A DNA stretch of 64,000 bases from Acutalibacteraceae bacterium (GTDB taxonomy: Bacteria; Bacillota; Clostridia; Oscillospirales; Acutalibacteraceae), in NCBI GenBank assembly GCA_045652165.1, contig JAZRTQ010000060.1:41139-105138 (forward strand), given 5' to 3'. Under the pieces are notes generated by a model that saw only the letters and a program-made list of their open reading frames with translations, had not been told where the DNA came from and ran no database searches. Of this stretch, positions 34,248 through 37,174 are shown in pieces; the stretch's first letter is position 1; every line of letters begins with the position of its first letter. Made by a program: the position numbers and the translations under genes.

Positions 34248-34943
34248 ATGATTAACTATTCCCGCGAAGTACAGGAAATGTGCTGCGTAGCTAAGGGACC
34301 CAACCACGGACCCGCACCCATCCCCGAAGAGGGCAAGTGGGTTAAGGCATACGAAATTAAGGATATTTCCGCTTTCACACACGGTGTTGGCTGGTGTGCT
34401 CCCCAGCAGGGCGCTTGCAAGCTTTCACTCAACGTTAAAGAAGGTATCATCGAAGAAGCTCTTGTTGAAACAATCGGTTGCTCCGGTATGACTCACTCAG
34501 CTGCTATGGCTGCTGAAATTCTTCCCGGCAAAACAATCCTCGAGGCTCTCAACACAGACCTTGTTTGCGATGCTATCAACACAGCAATGCGTGAACTCTT
34601 CCTTCAGATTGTTTACGGCCGTTCACAGTCTGCTTTCTCAGACGACGGTCTTTCAGTTGGTGCAGGCCTTGAAGACCTTGGTAAGGGTCTCCGTTCACAG
34701 GTTGGCACAATGTACGGCACAAAGGTTAAGGGCGTTCGTTACCTTGAAATGGCTGAGGGTTATGTTACAAGACTTGCTCTTGATGCAGACGATCAGGTTA
34801 TCGGCTACGAGTTCGTTTCACTCGGCAAGATGACTGACTTCATCAAGAAGGGCGACACACCCAACGATGCATACAACAAGGCAATGGGCACTTACGGCAG
34901 ATTTGCAGATGCTGTTAAGTACATCGACCCCAGAAAAGAATAA
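34248..34943 (+). CDS. NifU/IscU-like Fe-S scaffold domain protein
   Basis: GWCAPQQGACKL, ETIGCSGMTHSAAMA, LVCDAIN. Confidence 0.7.
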   Translation: MINYSREVQEMCCVAKGPNHGPAPIPEEGKWVKAYEIKDISAFTHGVGWCAPQQGACKLSLNVKEGIIEEALVETIGCSGMTHSAAMAAEILPGKTILEALNTDLVCDAINTAMRELFLQIVYGRSQSAFSDDGLSVGAGLEDLGKGLRSQVGTMYGTKVKGVRYLEMAEGYVTRLALDADDQVIGYEFVSLGKMTDFIKKGDTPNDAYNKAMGTYGRFADAVKYIDPRKE

Positions 34944-34966: not shown

Positions 34967-35965
34967 ATGGCATTATTTGAAAGCTATGAGAGACGCGTTG
35001 ATAAAATCAATGCTGTTCTTGCAGAATATGGCATTTCTTCAATTGAAGAATGTAAGGAAATCACTCTTGCTAAGGGTGTTGACTGCGATAAAATCGTTAG
35101 AGAAACTCAGCCCATCTGCTTTGAAAACGCTGTTTGGGCTTACACAGTAGGTTGCGCTATCGCTATCAAGAAGGGCTGCGTTAAGGCTGCTGATGCTGCT
35201 GCCGCTATCGGTATCGGTCTTCAGGCATTCTGCATCCCCGGTTCAGTTGCTGATAACAGACAGGTTGGTCTTGGTCACGGTAACCTCGGCAAAATGCTTC
35301 TTTCAGACGAAACAGAGTGCTTCTGCTTTCTTGCAGGTCACGAATCATTTGCTGCTGCTGAAGGCGCAATCAAAATTGCTCTTAACGCAAACAAGGTTCG
35401 TTCAAAGCCTCTCCGCGTTATCCTTAACGGTCTCGGCAAAGATGCTGCTATGATTATTTCAAGAATCAACGGCTTCACATATTGCAAGACAGAGTTTGAC
35501 CCCTATTCAGAAACCGTTAAGGTTGTTGAAGAAAAGGCATACTCAAACGGCCCCAGAGCAGACGTTAAGTGCTACGGCGCAGATAATGTTCCCGAAGGCG
35601 TTGCTATCATGAAGCTTGAAAACGTTGGTGTTTCCATCACAGGTAACTCAACCAACCCCACAAGATTCCAGCATCCTGTTGCAGGCACATACAAGAAATG
35701 GTGTGTTGAAAACGGCGTTAACTACTTCTCAGTTGCATCAGGCGGCGGCACAGGCCGTACACTTCATCCCGACAACATGGCAGCAGGTCCTGCTTCCTAC
35801 GGTATGACTGATACAATGGGTCGTATGCATTCAGATGCACAGTTCGCAGGTTCATCATCAGTTCCCGCTCACGTTGAAATGATGGGACTTATCGGTATGG
35901 GCAACAACCCCATGGTTGGCGCTACCGTTGCTTGCGCTGTTGCAGTTGAAGAAGCAGCGAAGTAA
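34967..35965 (+). CDS. GGGtGRT family protein
   Basis: Contains the naming motif ASGGGTGRTLHPD; paired with the NifU-like gene. Confidence 0.88.
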   Translation: MALFESYERRVDKINAVLAEYGISSIEECKEITLAKGVDCDKIVRETQPICFENAVWAYTVGCAIAIKKGCVKAADAAAAIGIGLQAFCIPGSVADNRQVGLGHGNLGKMLLSDETECFCFLAGHESFAAAEGAIKIALNANKVRSKPLRVILNGLGKDAAMIISRINGFTYCKTEFDPYSETVKVVEEKAYSNGPRADVKCYGADNVPEGVAIMKLENVGVSITGNSTNPTRFQHPVAGTYKKWCVENGVNYFSVASGGGTGRTLHPDNMAAGPASYGMTDTMGRMHSDAQFAGSSSVPAHVEMMGLIGMGNNPMVGATVACAVAVEEAAK

Positions 35966-36040
35966 GAACCTTTGTTACTCGCCACGACTCGTAATAAAGG
36001 CTTCTCAGCATTCAGGCTGTGAATTACAAATTTAATCATT

Positions 36041-36100
36041 TATAAAAAGTTAGACACATCATTTTGGAGAAATCCTTTGTGATGTGTCTAACTTTTTATA
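36041..36100. repeat. 21-bp perfect inverted repeat with 18-nt spacer
   Basis: TATAAAAAGTTAGACACATCA (36041-36061) / TGATGTGTCTAACTTTTTATA (36080-36100). Confidence 0.9.
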
Positions 36101-36152
36101 AAAATATATACTAAAATAAAAAATGTGTTTAAGTAAGTTGCGTTAAAAAAGA

Positions 36153-36181
36153 TTGACAAAAAATCAGATAGAATATATATT
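36153..36181 (+). promoter_or_regulatory. Candidate sigma-A promoter of the DUF1919 gene
   Basis: TTGACA (36153-36158), 17 nt, TATATT. Confidence 0.5.
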
Positions 36182-36204
36182 AAATTTGTAAAGGAGTGAA
36201 GTTC

Positions 36205-36909
36205 GTGTTCTTTCCGTCGATATTTAAAAAAGTTGTTTCGGTATTGGTATATTGCCGAAGATATTTGTTTAATAAAAGGAAGCAAATTAGAAACAAAAAT
36301 GAGACACCTACTCTTATTACGAATAACTGTATTGGTGGAATAATTTATCATGATTTGGGGTTAGAGTTTAGGTCGCCAACAATAAATTTGTTTTTTGGCA
36401 ATAAAGATTTTTTCCCTTTTATAAATGATATTGAATACTATGCAAATCAAGAACCAATTGAAGTGTTTGAGGATGGGCAAAAATTTCCAATAGGAGAGCT
36501 TCGCAAAGGTACAGAATCAATACGACTGTATTTTATGCATTATAAAACATTTGACGAAGCAGTTGAAAAATGGAAAAAAAGAGCAAAAAAAATAGACTAT
36601 AACAACCTTTTTATTATTTTTGAATATCCGCAAAAGTTAAAAAAGACAGATGAAATATACAAAGAGTTTAAAAGCATAAAACACACAAATAAAAGGCTGA
36701 TAACCGATCCTGTCGATTTTGAGGATGAAGAGATTGTAAAAATCAATATATATGATAAAAATTATCATCCTGGTAAAATAATGAAATATAAAAGCAAATA
36801 CAGCCCGAAACGATACCTGGATGACTTTGATTATATTAAATTTTTGAACAAAGAGAAAACAAATAAATTTTTGATTCATAGAAATTATGATGATGTGAAA
36901 AATACATAA
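36205..36909 (+). CDS. DUF1919 family protein (exopolysaccharide-locus associated), AT-rich
   Basis: TLITNNCIGG.IYHDLGLEF.SPTINL, FMHY..F.EA..KW.KR; GTG 36205 is 8 nt after AAGGAG. Confidence 0.8.
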   Translation: MFFPSIFKKVVSVLVYCRRYLFNKRKQIRNKNETPTLITNNCIGGIIYHDLGLEFRSPTINLFFGNKDFFPFINDIEYYANQEPIEVFEDGQKFPIGELRKGTESIRLYFMHYKTFDEAVEKWKKRAKKIDYNNLFIIFEYPQKLKKTDEIYKEFKSIKHTNKRLITDPVDFEDEEIVKINIYDKNYHPGKIMKYKSKYSPKRYLDDFDYIKFLNKEKTNKFLIHRNYDDVKNT

Positions 36910-36912
36910 TGG

Positions 36913-36942
36913 GCACATCGATCTGAATTATGATGTGTCTAA
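36913..36942. repeat. Degenerate second copy of the GACACATC/GATGTGTC site
   Basis: GCACATC...TGATGTGTCTAA; last 12 bp identical to 36080-36091. Confidence 0.7.
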
Positions 36943-37028
36943 TTGGTTTTATCAAATTGATTGAAAGTAAGACAGTTCCCGCTTTTCGAACCTCTGCGGA
37001 GCAGAGGCGAGTCACAAGCGAAGCTTGT

Positions 37029-37123
37029 ACGTTGAAATGATGGGTCTTATCGGTATGGGTAACAACCCCATGGTTGGTGCTACCGTTGCTTGCGCTGTTG
37101 CAGTTGAAGAAGTAGCGAAGTAA
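37029..37123 (+). pseudogene. Duplicated 3' fragment of the GGGtGRT gene (about 30 codons plus stop)
   Basis: 4 differences from 35871-35965, three synonymous; no start codon context. Confidence 0.8.
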
Positions 37124-37142: not shown

Positions 37143-37174
37143 AAAGCCTTGTTCTCGATTGAGAACAAGGCTTT
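37143..37174. terminator. Bidirectional terminator after the duplicated GGGtGRT end
   Basis: 14-bp stem AAAGCCTTGTTCTC-GATT-GAGAACAAGGCTTT. Confidence 0.8.

What the first reader, a model, noticed from the sequence alone, without database searches (positions are those of the whole stretch)
35871..37123. 1.16-kb integrase-less micro-island integrated in the 3' end of the GGGtGRT gene
Seen: the last 95 bp of the gene are repeated at 37029-37123 with 4 differences, three synonymous at third positions. The chromosomal terminator follows the second copy. Three hand-counted 60-nt lines inside are 20-25% GC against about 50% in one line of the flanking gene. The only cargo is DUF1919. Known: integrative elements carry a copy of the target gene end to restore it. 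Inference: the intact gene end came from a donor lineage under coding selection, and this is a minimal non-autonomous element using a protein-coding attB, mobilised in trans or stripped to one gene.
Basis: partly seen in the sequence, partly recalled or inferred. Interest (0 to 1): 0.7.

Follow-up and report, generated by a model that had tools for sequence, protein, structure and literature searches.

The report
Integrase-less mini-island in GGGtGRT gene end
A 1.16-kb piece of foreign DNA carrying one gene of unknown function sits in the tail of a very conserved gut-bacterial gene, at a spot that many phages also use for integration; it brought a spare copy of the gene tail but has no recombination enzyme of its own.

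Summary
The last 95 nt of the GGGtGRT gene (35871-35965) recur at 37029-37123 with 4 differences. It is the only direct repeat of 40 nt or more in the window. Between the copies lie 1063 nt at 24-32% GC, against 45-51% in the flanks, holding one promoter-equipped DUF1919 gene.

- Ten relatives with an identical GGGtGRT protein lack the insert, and several have the gene end directly followed by the window-type terminator.
- The same island occurs in another host background.
- The island's last 57 nt are 56/57 identical in a different, larger element. They join at the same point (TTGT|ACGT) to host-specific gene ends in five backgrounds.
- Tyrosine integrase genes lie just after the GGGtGRT stop in 5 genomes and 10 viral contigs. 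One further viral contig, a prophage, is bracketed by a perfect 330-nt repeat of the gene end and has its own integrase 130 nt after the stop.
- Five other species have integrase-less islands of 2.4-6.7 kb, with unrelated cargo, flanked the same way.
- Differences between paired copies fall mostly at third codon positions (35 of 46).

Best reading: a non-autonomous, att-flanked remnant or hitchhiker (CIME-like, e14/icd-like gene-end replacement). The cognate recombinase and actual mobility are not shown. It is a new member of a known kind, of moderate interest.

The parts
34967..35965 (+). GGGtGRT gene, intact at 332 aa. Its last 31 codons plus stop are the first repeat copy.
   Evidence: Pfam PF14057, E 4e-197, full-length match. 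The protein is identical to those on 24 other contigs read.
35871..35965 (+). c1: the functional gene end (attL-side copy), inferred to be the copy supplied by the element.
   Evidence: Repeat D1. It is followed by sequence foreign to the window's clade. It carries synonymous variants absent from 10 relatives at gene positions 921 and 954.
35871..35874 (+). ACGT at the left edge of the repeat (also at 37029-37032): the inferred crossover point.
   Evidence: In five host backgrounds the conserved arm ends at ...GCTTGT|ACGT. In L151 and L152 host-specific bases start at +5 and +8. Phage contig L136 joins its own DNA to the gene-end copy 2 nt further on.
35969..36000 (+). Post-stop hairpin A (CCTTTGTTAC...GTAATAAAGG).
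   Evidence: Predicted fold. The motif TTGTTACTCGC-N-CTCGTAATAA is conserved after the gene end in L011 and in both copies in L044.
36039..36102 (+). Hairpin H with 23-nt perfect arms. It now serves as the terminator for GGGtGRT and is of a type native to other lineages.
   Evidence: Inverted repeat I1. Fold z-score -10.5 for the 149-nt stretch 35962-36110 that contains it. Homologous hairpins lie directly after the gene in L026, L037 and L051, and after the second copy in L044 and L085. The 8-bp core is invariant and 5 pairs show compensatory change.
36153..36181 (+). Sigma-70-like promoter for the cargo gene (TTGACA-17-TATATT).
   Evidence: Best promoter-like site in the region, 11 of 12 matches. 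The region is conserved in L011.
36205..36909 (+). Cargo gene: DUF1919 protein, 234 aa from GTG 36205 (the mechanical ORF starts at 36196).
   Evidence: PF08942, E 1.3e-46. The database copy P0001 is 234 aa. dN/dS is 0.105/0.570 against the L011 copy. The model has pLDDT 93 and matches only the uncharacterised structure 2g6t.
36885..37028 (+). Right-arm module shared with another element family. It includes the degenerate hairpin H' (36911-36942).
   Evidence: 81-90% identical to the ends of L142, L146, L148 and L151-L153, whose interiors differ from the window's.
36972..37028 (+). 57-nt conserved core of the right arm (attR-side arm). It contains the small hairpin 36991-37007 and a copy of the 11-mer CAGTTCCCGCT, which also precedes c1.
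   Evidence: 56/57 identical to L146 and L151 and 52/57 to L148, while the adjoining gene-end copies are only 77-81/95 identical.
37029..37123 (+). c2: the displaced native gene end (attR-side copy), no longer translated as part of the gene.
   Evidence: It matches the relatives' consensus where c1 differs and has one private non-synonymous change. It is contiguous with the clade's native terminator.
37143..37174 (+). Native chromosomal terminator of the GGGtGRT operon in this clade. It is bidirectional and also faces the DUF4838 gene.
   Evidence: Terminator-like on both strands. It is homologous to hairpins directly after the gene in L006, L007, L009 and L036.

Best explanation
The segment from 35871 to 37028 is a non-autonomous integrated element. 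It sits at a site-specific attachment site in the 3' end of the GGGtGRT gene.

How elements of this kind work here: they recombine at or next to the ACGT in codons His301-Val302. They carry their own copy of the last 31 codons next to the crossover point. Integration fuses the gene body to the element's copy (c1). It pushes the native end (c2), with the native terminator, to the far side.

The window's element keeps only these parts:
- the replacement gene end;
- two hairpins, which now terminate GGGtGRT;
- a promoter and one DUF1919 gene under purifying selection;
- a right arm of about 145 nt.

It has no recombinase. It can therefore move only with a recombinase supplied by a related element, in trans or after tandem integration. 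Otherwise it no longer moves.

Shown: the anatomy, empty sites, use of the site by integrase-bearing phages and elements, the precise conserved junction in five hosts, and the coding-type divergence of the two copies.

Inferred: that c1 is the imported copy, that the crossover is at ACGT, that a tyrosine recombinase did it, and that the island is or was mobilised.
For: Anatomy.

Empty sites in the closest relatives.

Same island in a second host. L011 and L012 carry it at 79-85% identity, followed by a different terminator and different genes. Its non-coding parts are 79-85% identical and DUF1919 dS is 0.57, while the host gene dS is 0.95. The island is therefore younger than the host split.

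Conserved arm, variable host sequence. The right-arm core is 56/57 identical to L146 and L151, but the adjoining c2 is only 80/95 identical to L146's c2, and L151's partial c2 differs from the window's from 5 nt after the junction. The discontinuity is exactly at TTGT|ACGT, and host-specific bases start 5 nt after it.

Different cargo behind the same arm.

Integrases. Tyrosine integrases lie next to the gene end in 5 genome loci and 10 viral contigs. The prophage contig L104/L115 has a 330-nt perfect flanking repeat and an integrase 130 nt after the stop. About 20 viral contigs begin or end with only the last 30-70 codons. L136 has the same left boundary as the window's repeat to within 2 nt.

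Other islands. Gene-end repeats also bracket integrase-less inserts in L041, L067, L073, L085 and L095. L073 and L085 have three copies, consistent with tandem accretion.

Coding-type divergence. 35 of 46 differences between paired copies are at codon position 3.

No recombinase. No integrase-like or resolvase-like sequence was found in the 64-kb window.
Against: No recombinase has been tied to this particular arm. The elements that share the arm were seen only as contigs of 1.6-4.4 kb (a related 6.5-kb contig stops short of the arm). Their only recombinase-like gene is a small serine recombinase of the invertase type, not an integrase.

The arms of the integrase-bearing phages show no sequence similarity to the island's arms.

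The island's left part (hairpins A and H) looks like ordinary chromosomal sequence from other lineages rather than an element-specific arm.

Within each genome the two copies are more alike than orthologous copies are between genomes. In L011 the first 80 nt are identical. This needs either donors close to the host or gene conversion.

The left boundaries of the repeats differ among the other islands, so they are not all products of one recombinase.

There is no read-level evidence of circles or of a polymorphic empty site.
Confidence: 0.68

Rival explanations
1. Homologous-recombination cassette. A circularised or linear fragment from another lineage, carrying 'gene end + downstream DUF1919', entered by RecA-dependent crossover in the very conserved gene end (Campbell-type). 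No site-specific recombinase was involved. The two gene-end copies then let the cassette spread into any genome with GGGtGRT.
For: GGGtGRT is extremely conserved at the DNA level (identical protein at dS 0.2-0.5). DUF1919 lies directly downstream of GGGtGRT without a second copy in L015. The island's left part resembles native chromosome of other lineages. Copies within a genome are nearly identical. The island has no recombinase. Repeat boundaries vary among islands.
Against: A random fragment end would not give the same junction, to within 4 nt, in five host backgrounds with a 98%-conserved arm abutting 84%-identical host sequence. Repeat lengths cluster in the last 54-122 nt of a 999-nt gene, the range also carried by integrase-bearing phages. 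RecA would favour longer tracts. Integrases are recurrent at this site.
Confidence: 0.14
2. Immobile fossil. A full prophage or integrative element integrated once in an ancestor and was then deleted down to one gene. The island has only been inherited vertically and lost repeatedly by recombination between the repeats.
For: The island has no recombinase. Loss by recombination between 95-nt direct repeats is easy. The second copy already carries a non-synonymous change. The e14/icd precedent shows such remnants persist (PMC13626634).
Against: The stripped form itself is present in two hosts whose GGGtGRT dS is 0.95, while the island's non-coding DNA is still 79-85% identical. The right-arm core is 98% identical in yet other hosts. 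More than 30 loci closer to the window than L011 lack the island. The origin by deletion remains compatible with the main explanation; only 'never moved since' is disfavoured.
Confidence: 0.12
3. In-situ tandem duplication of the gene end followed by decay of one copy, or an assembly artefact that joins two strains.
For: The window is probably a metagenome assembly, and the reads could not be inspected.
Against: The differences between copies are of the coding type, not random decay (p = 2.7e-4 even against a 50% expectation). The architecture recurs in independent assemblies from other samples. The insert has foreign composition and a conserved arm.
Confidence: 0.04

Closest known systems
CIMEs (cis-mobilizable elements), as described for ICESt1/ICESt3-related islands of Streptococcus thermophilus
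   Same: [quoted passage not shown] Both sit at the attachment site of autonomous elements. Tandem arrays at the same site occur (L073 and L085). From my own knowledge, the S. thermophilus site is also the 3' end of a protein-coding gene (fda).
   Different: The window's island is far smaller (1.16 kb, one gene). The partner elements seen at this site are mostly phage-like rather than conjugative. No cognate integrase has been identified. Mobilisation has not been demonstrated. The flanking repeat is long (95 nt) and is a full replacement of 31 codons.
Cryptic prophage e14 (and phage 21) in the icd gene of Escherichia coli
   Same: e14 is flanked by icd, whose end extends into the prophage, and by a C-terminal pseudogene fragment (icdC) at the other end. 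Excision changes icd mainly by synonymous substitutions (PMC13626634). The logic is the same as here: c1 functional, c2 displaced, differences mostly synonymous.
   Different: e14 is 15 kb and, from my own knowledge, keeps its own integrase, and it excises on SOS induction (PMC13626634). The window's island has no recombinase. The target gene and host phylum differ.
Integron gene cassettes
   Same: Both are single-gene units of about 1 kb bounded by a structured recombination site. Different cargo is found behind the same conserved arm.
   Different: There is no IntI integrase and no attI/attC array. The cargo has its own promoter. The target is inside a coding gene and is repaired by a carried gene end. 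None of the family's defining features was met.
IMEX elements and pdif modules (integrase-less elements that use the host's XerCD at dif-like sites)
   Same: These are also small elements without their own recombinase, inserted site-specifically.
   Different: No dif-like 28-bp site is evident at either junction. The target lies within an ORF, and integrase-bearing phages use the same site.

Membership tests
CIME (cis-mobilizable element) | Flanked by attL and attR produced by site-specific integration at the attachment site of autonomous elements | tested here: met
   95-nt direct repeats. A conserved arm is joined at the same nucleotide to host-specific gene ends in five backgrounds. Integrase-bearing phages and elements use the same gene end.
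CIME (cis-mobilizable element) | Lacks integration/excision and transfer genes | tested here: met
   The only family hit in the island is DUF1919. No integrase-like or resolvase-like sequence is present in the whole 64-kb window.
CIME (cis-mobilizable element) | att sites related to those of an identified autonomous element whose integrase can act on them | tested here: inconclusive
   The right arm is shared with a larger element family (L146, L148, L151-L153). That family was seen only in part, and its integrase is unknown. The arms of the integrase-bearing phages are not similar.
CIME (cis-mobilizable element) | Excision and transfer after accretion with an ICE or prophage | not testable with these tools
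   No run holds the island. Only indirect support exists: three-copy arrays in L073 and L085.
Integrated prophage or element with gene-end replacement (e14/icd type) | Integration inside the 3' end of an ORF, with the element supplying an alternative end that keeps the ORF intact | tested here: met
   The ORF is intact and its protein is identical to that of relatives. c1 is followed by foreign sequence and c2 by the native terminator.
Integrated prophage or element with gene-end replacement (e14/icd type) | A displaced C-terminal pseudogene fragment at the other junction, differing mainly by synonymous changes | tested here: met
   3 of 4 differences are synonymous in the window, and 35 of 46 are at codon position 3 over 8 pairs.
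Integrated prophage or element with gene-end replacement (e14/icd type) | The element encodes its own integrase | tested here: not met
Integron cassette | attC site recombined by an IntI integrase at attI, with a promoterless ORF | tested here: not met
   No integrase is present in the window. The cargo has a strong promoter-like site. There is a single unit inside a gene end rather than an array.
Diversity-generating retroelement (template and variable repeat at a gene's 3' end) | A reverse transcriptase, with differences confined to adenines of the template repeat | tested here: not met
   The differences are A/T, C/T, C/T and C/T. No reverse transcriptase lies in or near the island.
MITE or IS-type transposon | Terminal inverted repeats with a short target-site duplication, and copies at many sites | tested here: not met
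   An 11-nt inverted match with one mismatch exists (TTGTTACTCGC at 35974-35984 and GCGAGTCACAA at 37005-37015; read). There is no short target duplication. Every copy of the arm found is at the GGGtGRT end. No other copy is present in the window.

The most novel reading that the evidence does not exclude
The right arm of about 145 nt, together with a carried gene end, acts as a portable recombination module. Unrelated small cargos (a single DUF1919 gene here, other genes elsewhere) are swapped behind it. They are inserted into the GGGtGRT end by recombinases of co-resident phages or elements. This would be a cassette-like hitchhiking system at a protein-coding attachment site that is a major, so far undescribed integration hot spot in gut Clostridia. 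At 1,158 bp it would be among the smallest trans- or cis-mobilised integrative units.
Probability: 0.25. Interest if true: 0.6.

Novelty: new member of a known kind. Interest (0 to 1): 0.45.

Why it matters
GGGtGRT is a very conserved gene, and metaproteome papers on rumen and gut samples report its protein. In the searchable literature it is never mentioned as an attachment site (13 papers hold the term, none about integration).

The data here show that its last roughly 100 nt are a busy landing pad in Oscillospirales, Christensenellales and related gut Clostridia:
- prophages and small integrase elements;
- integrase-less islands carrying DNA-repair genes, glycyl-radical-enzyme genes, sugar-utilisation genes and genes of unknown function.

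This is useful in two ways. It gives a practical marker for finding prophages and islands in fragmented gut and rumen metagenomes, since contigs break at this repeat. It also offers a natural system for studying how non-autonomous islands persist and spread.

The island itself follows known principles (CIME, e14/icd). The main gain is a well-documented new site and family rather than a new mechanism.

Tried and rejected
- Exact-protein look-ups of the DUF1919 and DUF4838 proteins found nothing.
- Rfam and tRNA/tmRNA scans of 34-38 kb found no known RNA gene that could be the real target.
- Read-level validation failed. No indexed run holds the island, and laying contigs of four runs showed only the ubiquitous gene plus two short contigs over 36896-37058.
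- A mosaic test for an imported tract in the gene body was negative. Window-private substitutions are evenly spread, so the extent of imported DNA cannot be seen upstream of c1 (the last table was mis-indexed and is not used).
- DUF1919 relatives at 51-55% identity (L097, L098) are not flanked by duplicated gene ends, so the cargo gene is not itself a mobile unit with that habit.
- The L044 integrase segment was first read as a clean DR-flanked element. Part of its 'left end' is homologous to host flank in L148, so its limits are uncertain. It is cited only as 'integrase between two gene-end/post-stop copies'.
- Searches for the right arm in IMG/VR found nothing meaningful. The arm-sharing element has no match in the phage collection or in IMG/VR.
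- PHROGs and Pfam gave no function for most of its ORFs. One search failed on a wrong frame.
- Structure search gave no function for DUF1919.
- DGR, integron, IMEX and MITE readings were considered and rejected (see membership tests).
Full report
OBSERVATION. The window holds a 95-nt direct repeat, 35871-35965 and 37029-37123, 91/95 identical, with a spacing of 1158 nt. It is the only direct repeat of 40 nt or more in the 64 kb. The first copy (c1) is the end of an intact 332-aa GGGtGRT gene at 34967-35965 (PF14057, E 4e-197). The second copy (c2) is followed by a terminator-like hairpin at 37143-37174. Three differences are synonymous GGN changes. One is Ala to Val in c2. The 1063 nt between the copies are 24-32% GC, against 45-51% in the gene.

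ANATOMY. After the stop codon of c1 come the following parts:
- a small hairpin A at 35969-36000;
- a 64-nt hairpin H with 23-nt perfect arms at 36039-36102 (z-score -10.5 for the 149-nt stretch 35962-36110 that contains it);
- the best sigma-70-like site of the region, TTGACA-17-TATATT, at 36153-36181;
- a DUF1919 gene at 36205-36909 (PF08942, E 1.3e-46; the database copy is 234 aa);
- a degenerate copy of hairpin H at 36911-36942;
- a 57-nt stretch at 36972-37028 that abuts c2.

No integrase-like or resolvase-like sequence is present in the island or anywhere else in the window. No Rfam family or tRNA/tmRNA gene lies in the area.

EMPTY SITES. The identical GGGtGRT protein is encoded on at least 24 other contigs. 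The ten shown (L001-L010; gene 91-95% identical in DNA) have a single gene end. In eight of the ten (all but L002 and L005) the stop is followed within about 20 nt by a terminator of the same type as the one after c2 in the window. L006, L007 and L009 align from the gene end straight into it. So c2 plus this terminator is the native arrangement of this clade. What follows c1 is foreign.

THE SAME ISLAND ELSEWHERE. L011 and L012 come from other samples. They carry c1, A, H, promoter, DUF1919, right arm and c2 at 79-85% identity, with the same boundaries. L013 is a 1.1-kb contig that covers the insert and reaches into both copies. A different terminator and different genes follow c2 in L011 and L012. 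Between the two hosts GGGtGRT has dS 0.95. DUF1919 has dS 0.57 (dN/dS 0.18), and the island's non-coding parts are still 79-85% identical. More than 30 loci whose gene is closer to the window's than L011's lack the island. The island is therefore younger than the split of its two hosts.

THE RIGHT ARM IS A CONSERVED ELEMENT END. A metagenome scan for a 19-nt pattern of the arm returned L142 and L146. Contexts of an ORF in L146 gave L147-L154. In L142, L146, L148 and L151-L153 the window's segment 36885-37028 recurs. For the full length, or as much as each contig holds, it is 81-90% identical. The 57-nt core is 56/57 identical in L146 and L151 and 52/57 in L148.

In every case the arm is joined at ...GCTTGT|ACGT... 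to a gene-end copy of another host type. c2 is only 77-81/95 identical to the window's, and the terminators differ. In L151 and L152 the host-type bases already differ at +5 and +8 after the junction and match L018's gene exactly. So there is a sharp step from 98% to 84% identity at one nucleotide position, in five host backgrounds. This is what a site-specific attR junction looks like. It places the crossover within ACGT (codons His301-Val302).

Behind the arm these contigs do not have DUF1919. They have unknown small ORFs, a Cro/CI-type HTH gene, a small serine recombinase of the invertase type and a WYL protein. The same arm therefore serves at least two cargos.

THE SITE IS USED BY INTEGRASE-BEARING ELEMENTS. 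80 GGGtGRT loci came from species-representative genomes. L018, L044, L054 and L072 among these 80 loci, and L014 from an earlier look-up, have a tyrosine integrase 0.2-2 kb after the stop. In L018 an HTH_17 excisionase-like gene accompanies it.

In IMG/VR, 35 viral contigs hold GGGtGRT sequence. About 20 of them begin or end with only the last 30-70 codons. Ten have a tyrosine integrase 150-400 nt after the gene end. One 46-kb contig (L104/L115) has the full gene, then a 314-aa integrase 130 nt downstream (PF00589, E 1e-33). About 39 kb further on it has a perfect 330-nt repeat of the gene end. In L136 phage DNA is joined to a gene-end copy that starts at GTTGAAATGATGGG, 2 nt from the window's repeat boundary.

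OTHER INTEGRASE-LESS ISLANDS. Five further species have inserts bracketed by 53-96-nt gene-end repeats:
- L041, 4.1 kb: glycyl-radical enzyme, activase and an AraC regulator;
- L067, 6.7 kb: ligase, Ku, SRAP and a Y-family polymerase;
- L073, 3.9 kb plus 0.3 kb: an AAA/DUF4143 protein, GH32 and a URO-D-like protein;
- L085, 3.7 kb: HTH proteins;
- L095, 2.4 kb: two unknown ORFs.

L073 and L085 have three copies. The left boundaries of these repeats differ, so several recombinases or events are involved. All boundaries nevertheless lie in the last 54-122 nt of the gene, the same range as the phage-borne copies.

HOW THE TWO COPIES DIVERGED. Over 8 repeat pairs, 35 of 46 differences are at codon position 3. 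The p-value is 3.6e-9 against random placement. It is 2.7e-4 against the 50% expected if one copy had simply decayed after an in-situ duplication. Both copies were therefore shaped as coding sequence in separate lineages. In the window, c2 matches the relatives' consensus where c1 has private synonymous variants, and c2 has one private non-synonymous change.

MECHANISM, AS INFERRED. Elements of this kind recombine at ACGT in the gene. They carry a replacement for the last 31 codons next to the crossover. Integration yields gene body + c1 + element + arm + c2 + native terminator, and the protein stays intact.

The window's element has lost, or never had, a recombinase. It keeps the replacement end, hairpins that terminate GGGtGRT, one expressed-looking gene under purifying selection, and the arm. 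Hairpins A and H are found natively right after GGGtGRT in other lineages (L026, L037 and L051; after c2 in L044 and L085). This suggests that the carried gene end was captured together with its downstream flank from a former host. DUF1919 lies directly after GGGtGRT without a second copy in L015, so the cargo may have been captured the same way.

Movement would need a recombinase in trans, or tandem integration of an autonomous element followed by excision of the composite. That is the CIME route (PMC6323972).

RIVALS.
- RecA-driven insertion of a foreign fragment explains the chromosomal look of the left part and the similarity of the copies within a genome. It does not explain the invariant junction, the conserved arm or the clustering of repeat lengths.
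- A purely vertical fossil is disfavoured by the divergence figures and by the arm's 98% identity across hosts.
- In-situ duplication is rejected by the codon-position pattern.
- An assembly artefact is made unlikely by the independent assemblies.

WHAT IS KNOWN. The logic is that of e14 or phage 21 in icd of E. coli: the functional end is supplied by the element, an icdC pseudogene fragment lies at the far side, and the differences are synonymous (PMC13626634). The integrase-less state is that of CIMEs (PMC6323972). GGGtGRT appears in the searchable literature only in 13 papers, the top-ranked of which are gut or rumen metaproteome and microbiome studies. I found no description of it as an attachment site.

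I file the island as a new member of a known kind. The new elements are the site, its heavy and varied use in gut Clostridia, and the very small size and modular arm of this island.

LIMITS.
- The cognate recombinase is unknown.
- The arm-sharing element was seen only in fragments.
- The arms of the integrase-bearing phages are unrelated in sequence to the island's arms.
- Mobility is inferred from comparison, not observed.
- The DUF1919 function is unknown. The model has pLDDT 93 and matches only the uncharacterised structure 2g6t. Homologues at 52% identity lie in glycosyltransferase clusters.

Noticed in passing
window 36039-36102; also L026, L037, L044, L051, L073, L085 just downstream of GGGtGRT: The terminator hairpin after GGGtGRT has an invariant 8-bp stem core (ACACATCA/TGATGTGT) in nine sequences from different families. 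The outer and inner pairs co-vary, with 5 pairs showing compensatory change. That is unusual conservation for a plain terminator. It may be a protein-binding or regulatory site.
   Followed up: partly
window 35969-36000; L011 and L044 post-stop regions: A second conserved stem-loop lies right after the stop codon (TTGTTACTCGC-N4-6-CTCGTAATAA). In some loci a variable mini-hairpin sits between two GAACC words. An inverted copy of its first half (GCGAGTCACAA) lies in the right arm at 37005-37015. This is unexplained.
   Followed up: partly
window 36973-36983 and 35859-35869: The 11-mer CAGTTCCCGCT, which precedes c1 in the gene, recurs 45 nt upstream of c2 inside the conserved arm. The arm may contain an older, interrupted extension of the gene-end copy.
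   Followed up: no
window 34967-35965 compared with L001-L010: The GGGtGRT protein is 100% identical across genomes whose genes differ at dS 0.22-0.31 (L005, L006 and L010; the fourth genome tested, L009, has dS 0.50 with dN 0.004). This indicates extreme purifying selection on a protein of unknown function. It is preceded by a NifU-like gene (34248-34943) and DUF5058 membrane proteins.
   Followed up: partly
window 36870-36909: The window's DUF1919 ORF is 14 codons longer than the L011 copy. Its tail reads into the right-arm module, so the cargo-arm joint lies inside the ORF's 3' end.
   Followed up: no
L067:11003-17676: An integrase-less island in the same site carries an ATP-dependent DNA ligase, Ku, an SRAP peptidase and a Y-family polymerase. 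This is a compact DNA-repair/NHEJ module at 36% GC in a 52% GC gene context.
   Followed up: partly
L041:11000-15124: An island in the same site carries a PFL-like glycyl-radical enzyme, its activase and an AraC regulator. Here the repeat includes the terminator, and the GC content equals that of the host.
   Followed up: partly
L073:1871-6260 and L085:1200-6411: Three successive copies of the gene end or post-stop region separate two inserts, giving tandem arrays at the site.
   Followed up: partly
L014:1-5654 and L015:3860-8587: In L014 the NifU-like/GGGtGRT pair is inverted relative to DUF1919 and abuts an integrase plus an HTH_17 gene. In L015 a reverse-transcriptase gene (RVT_1) lies 1.6 kb after DUF1919.
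   Followed up: no
L054, L072 post-stop regions: Repeated CTCGTCCACAT words, direct and inverted, lie between the gene's terminator and the integrase. They look like arm-type integrase binding sites. L067's island shares the preceding CAATGGTAACCAT palindrome with L054.
   Followed up: no
L001, L003, L008, L010, L027 downstream of GGGtGRT: Short cassettes (a 51-aa ORF, or an HTH gene plus a 204-aa ORF) are bracketed by 24-50-nt perfect repeats of the post-stop/terminator region. The variable zone after this gene seems to be built from repeat-bounded units even where the gene end itself is not duplicated.
   Followed up: no
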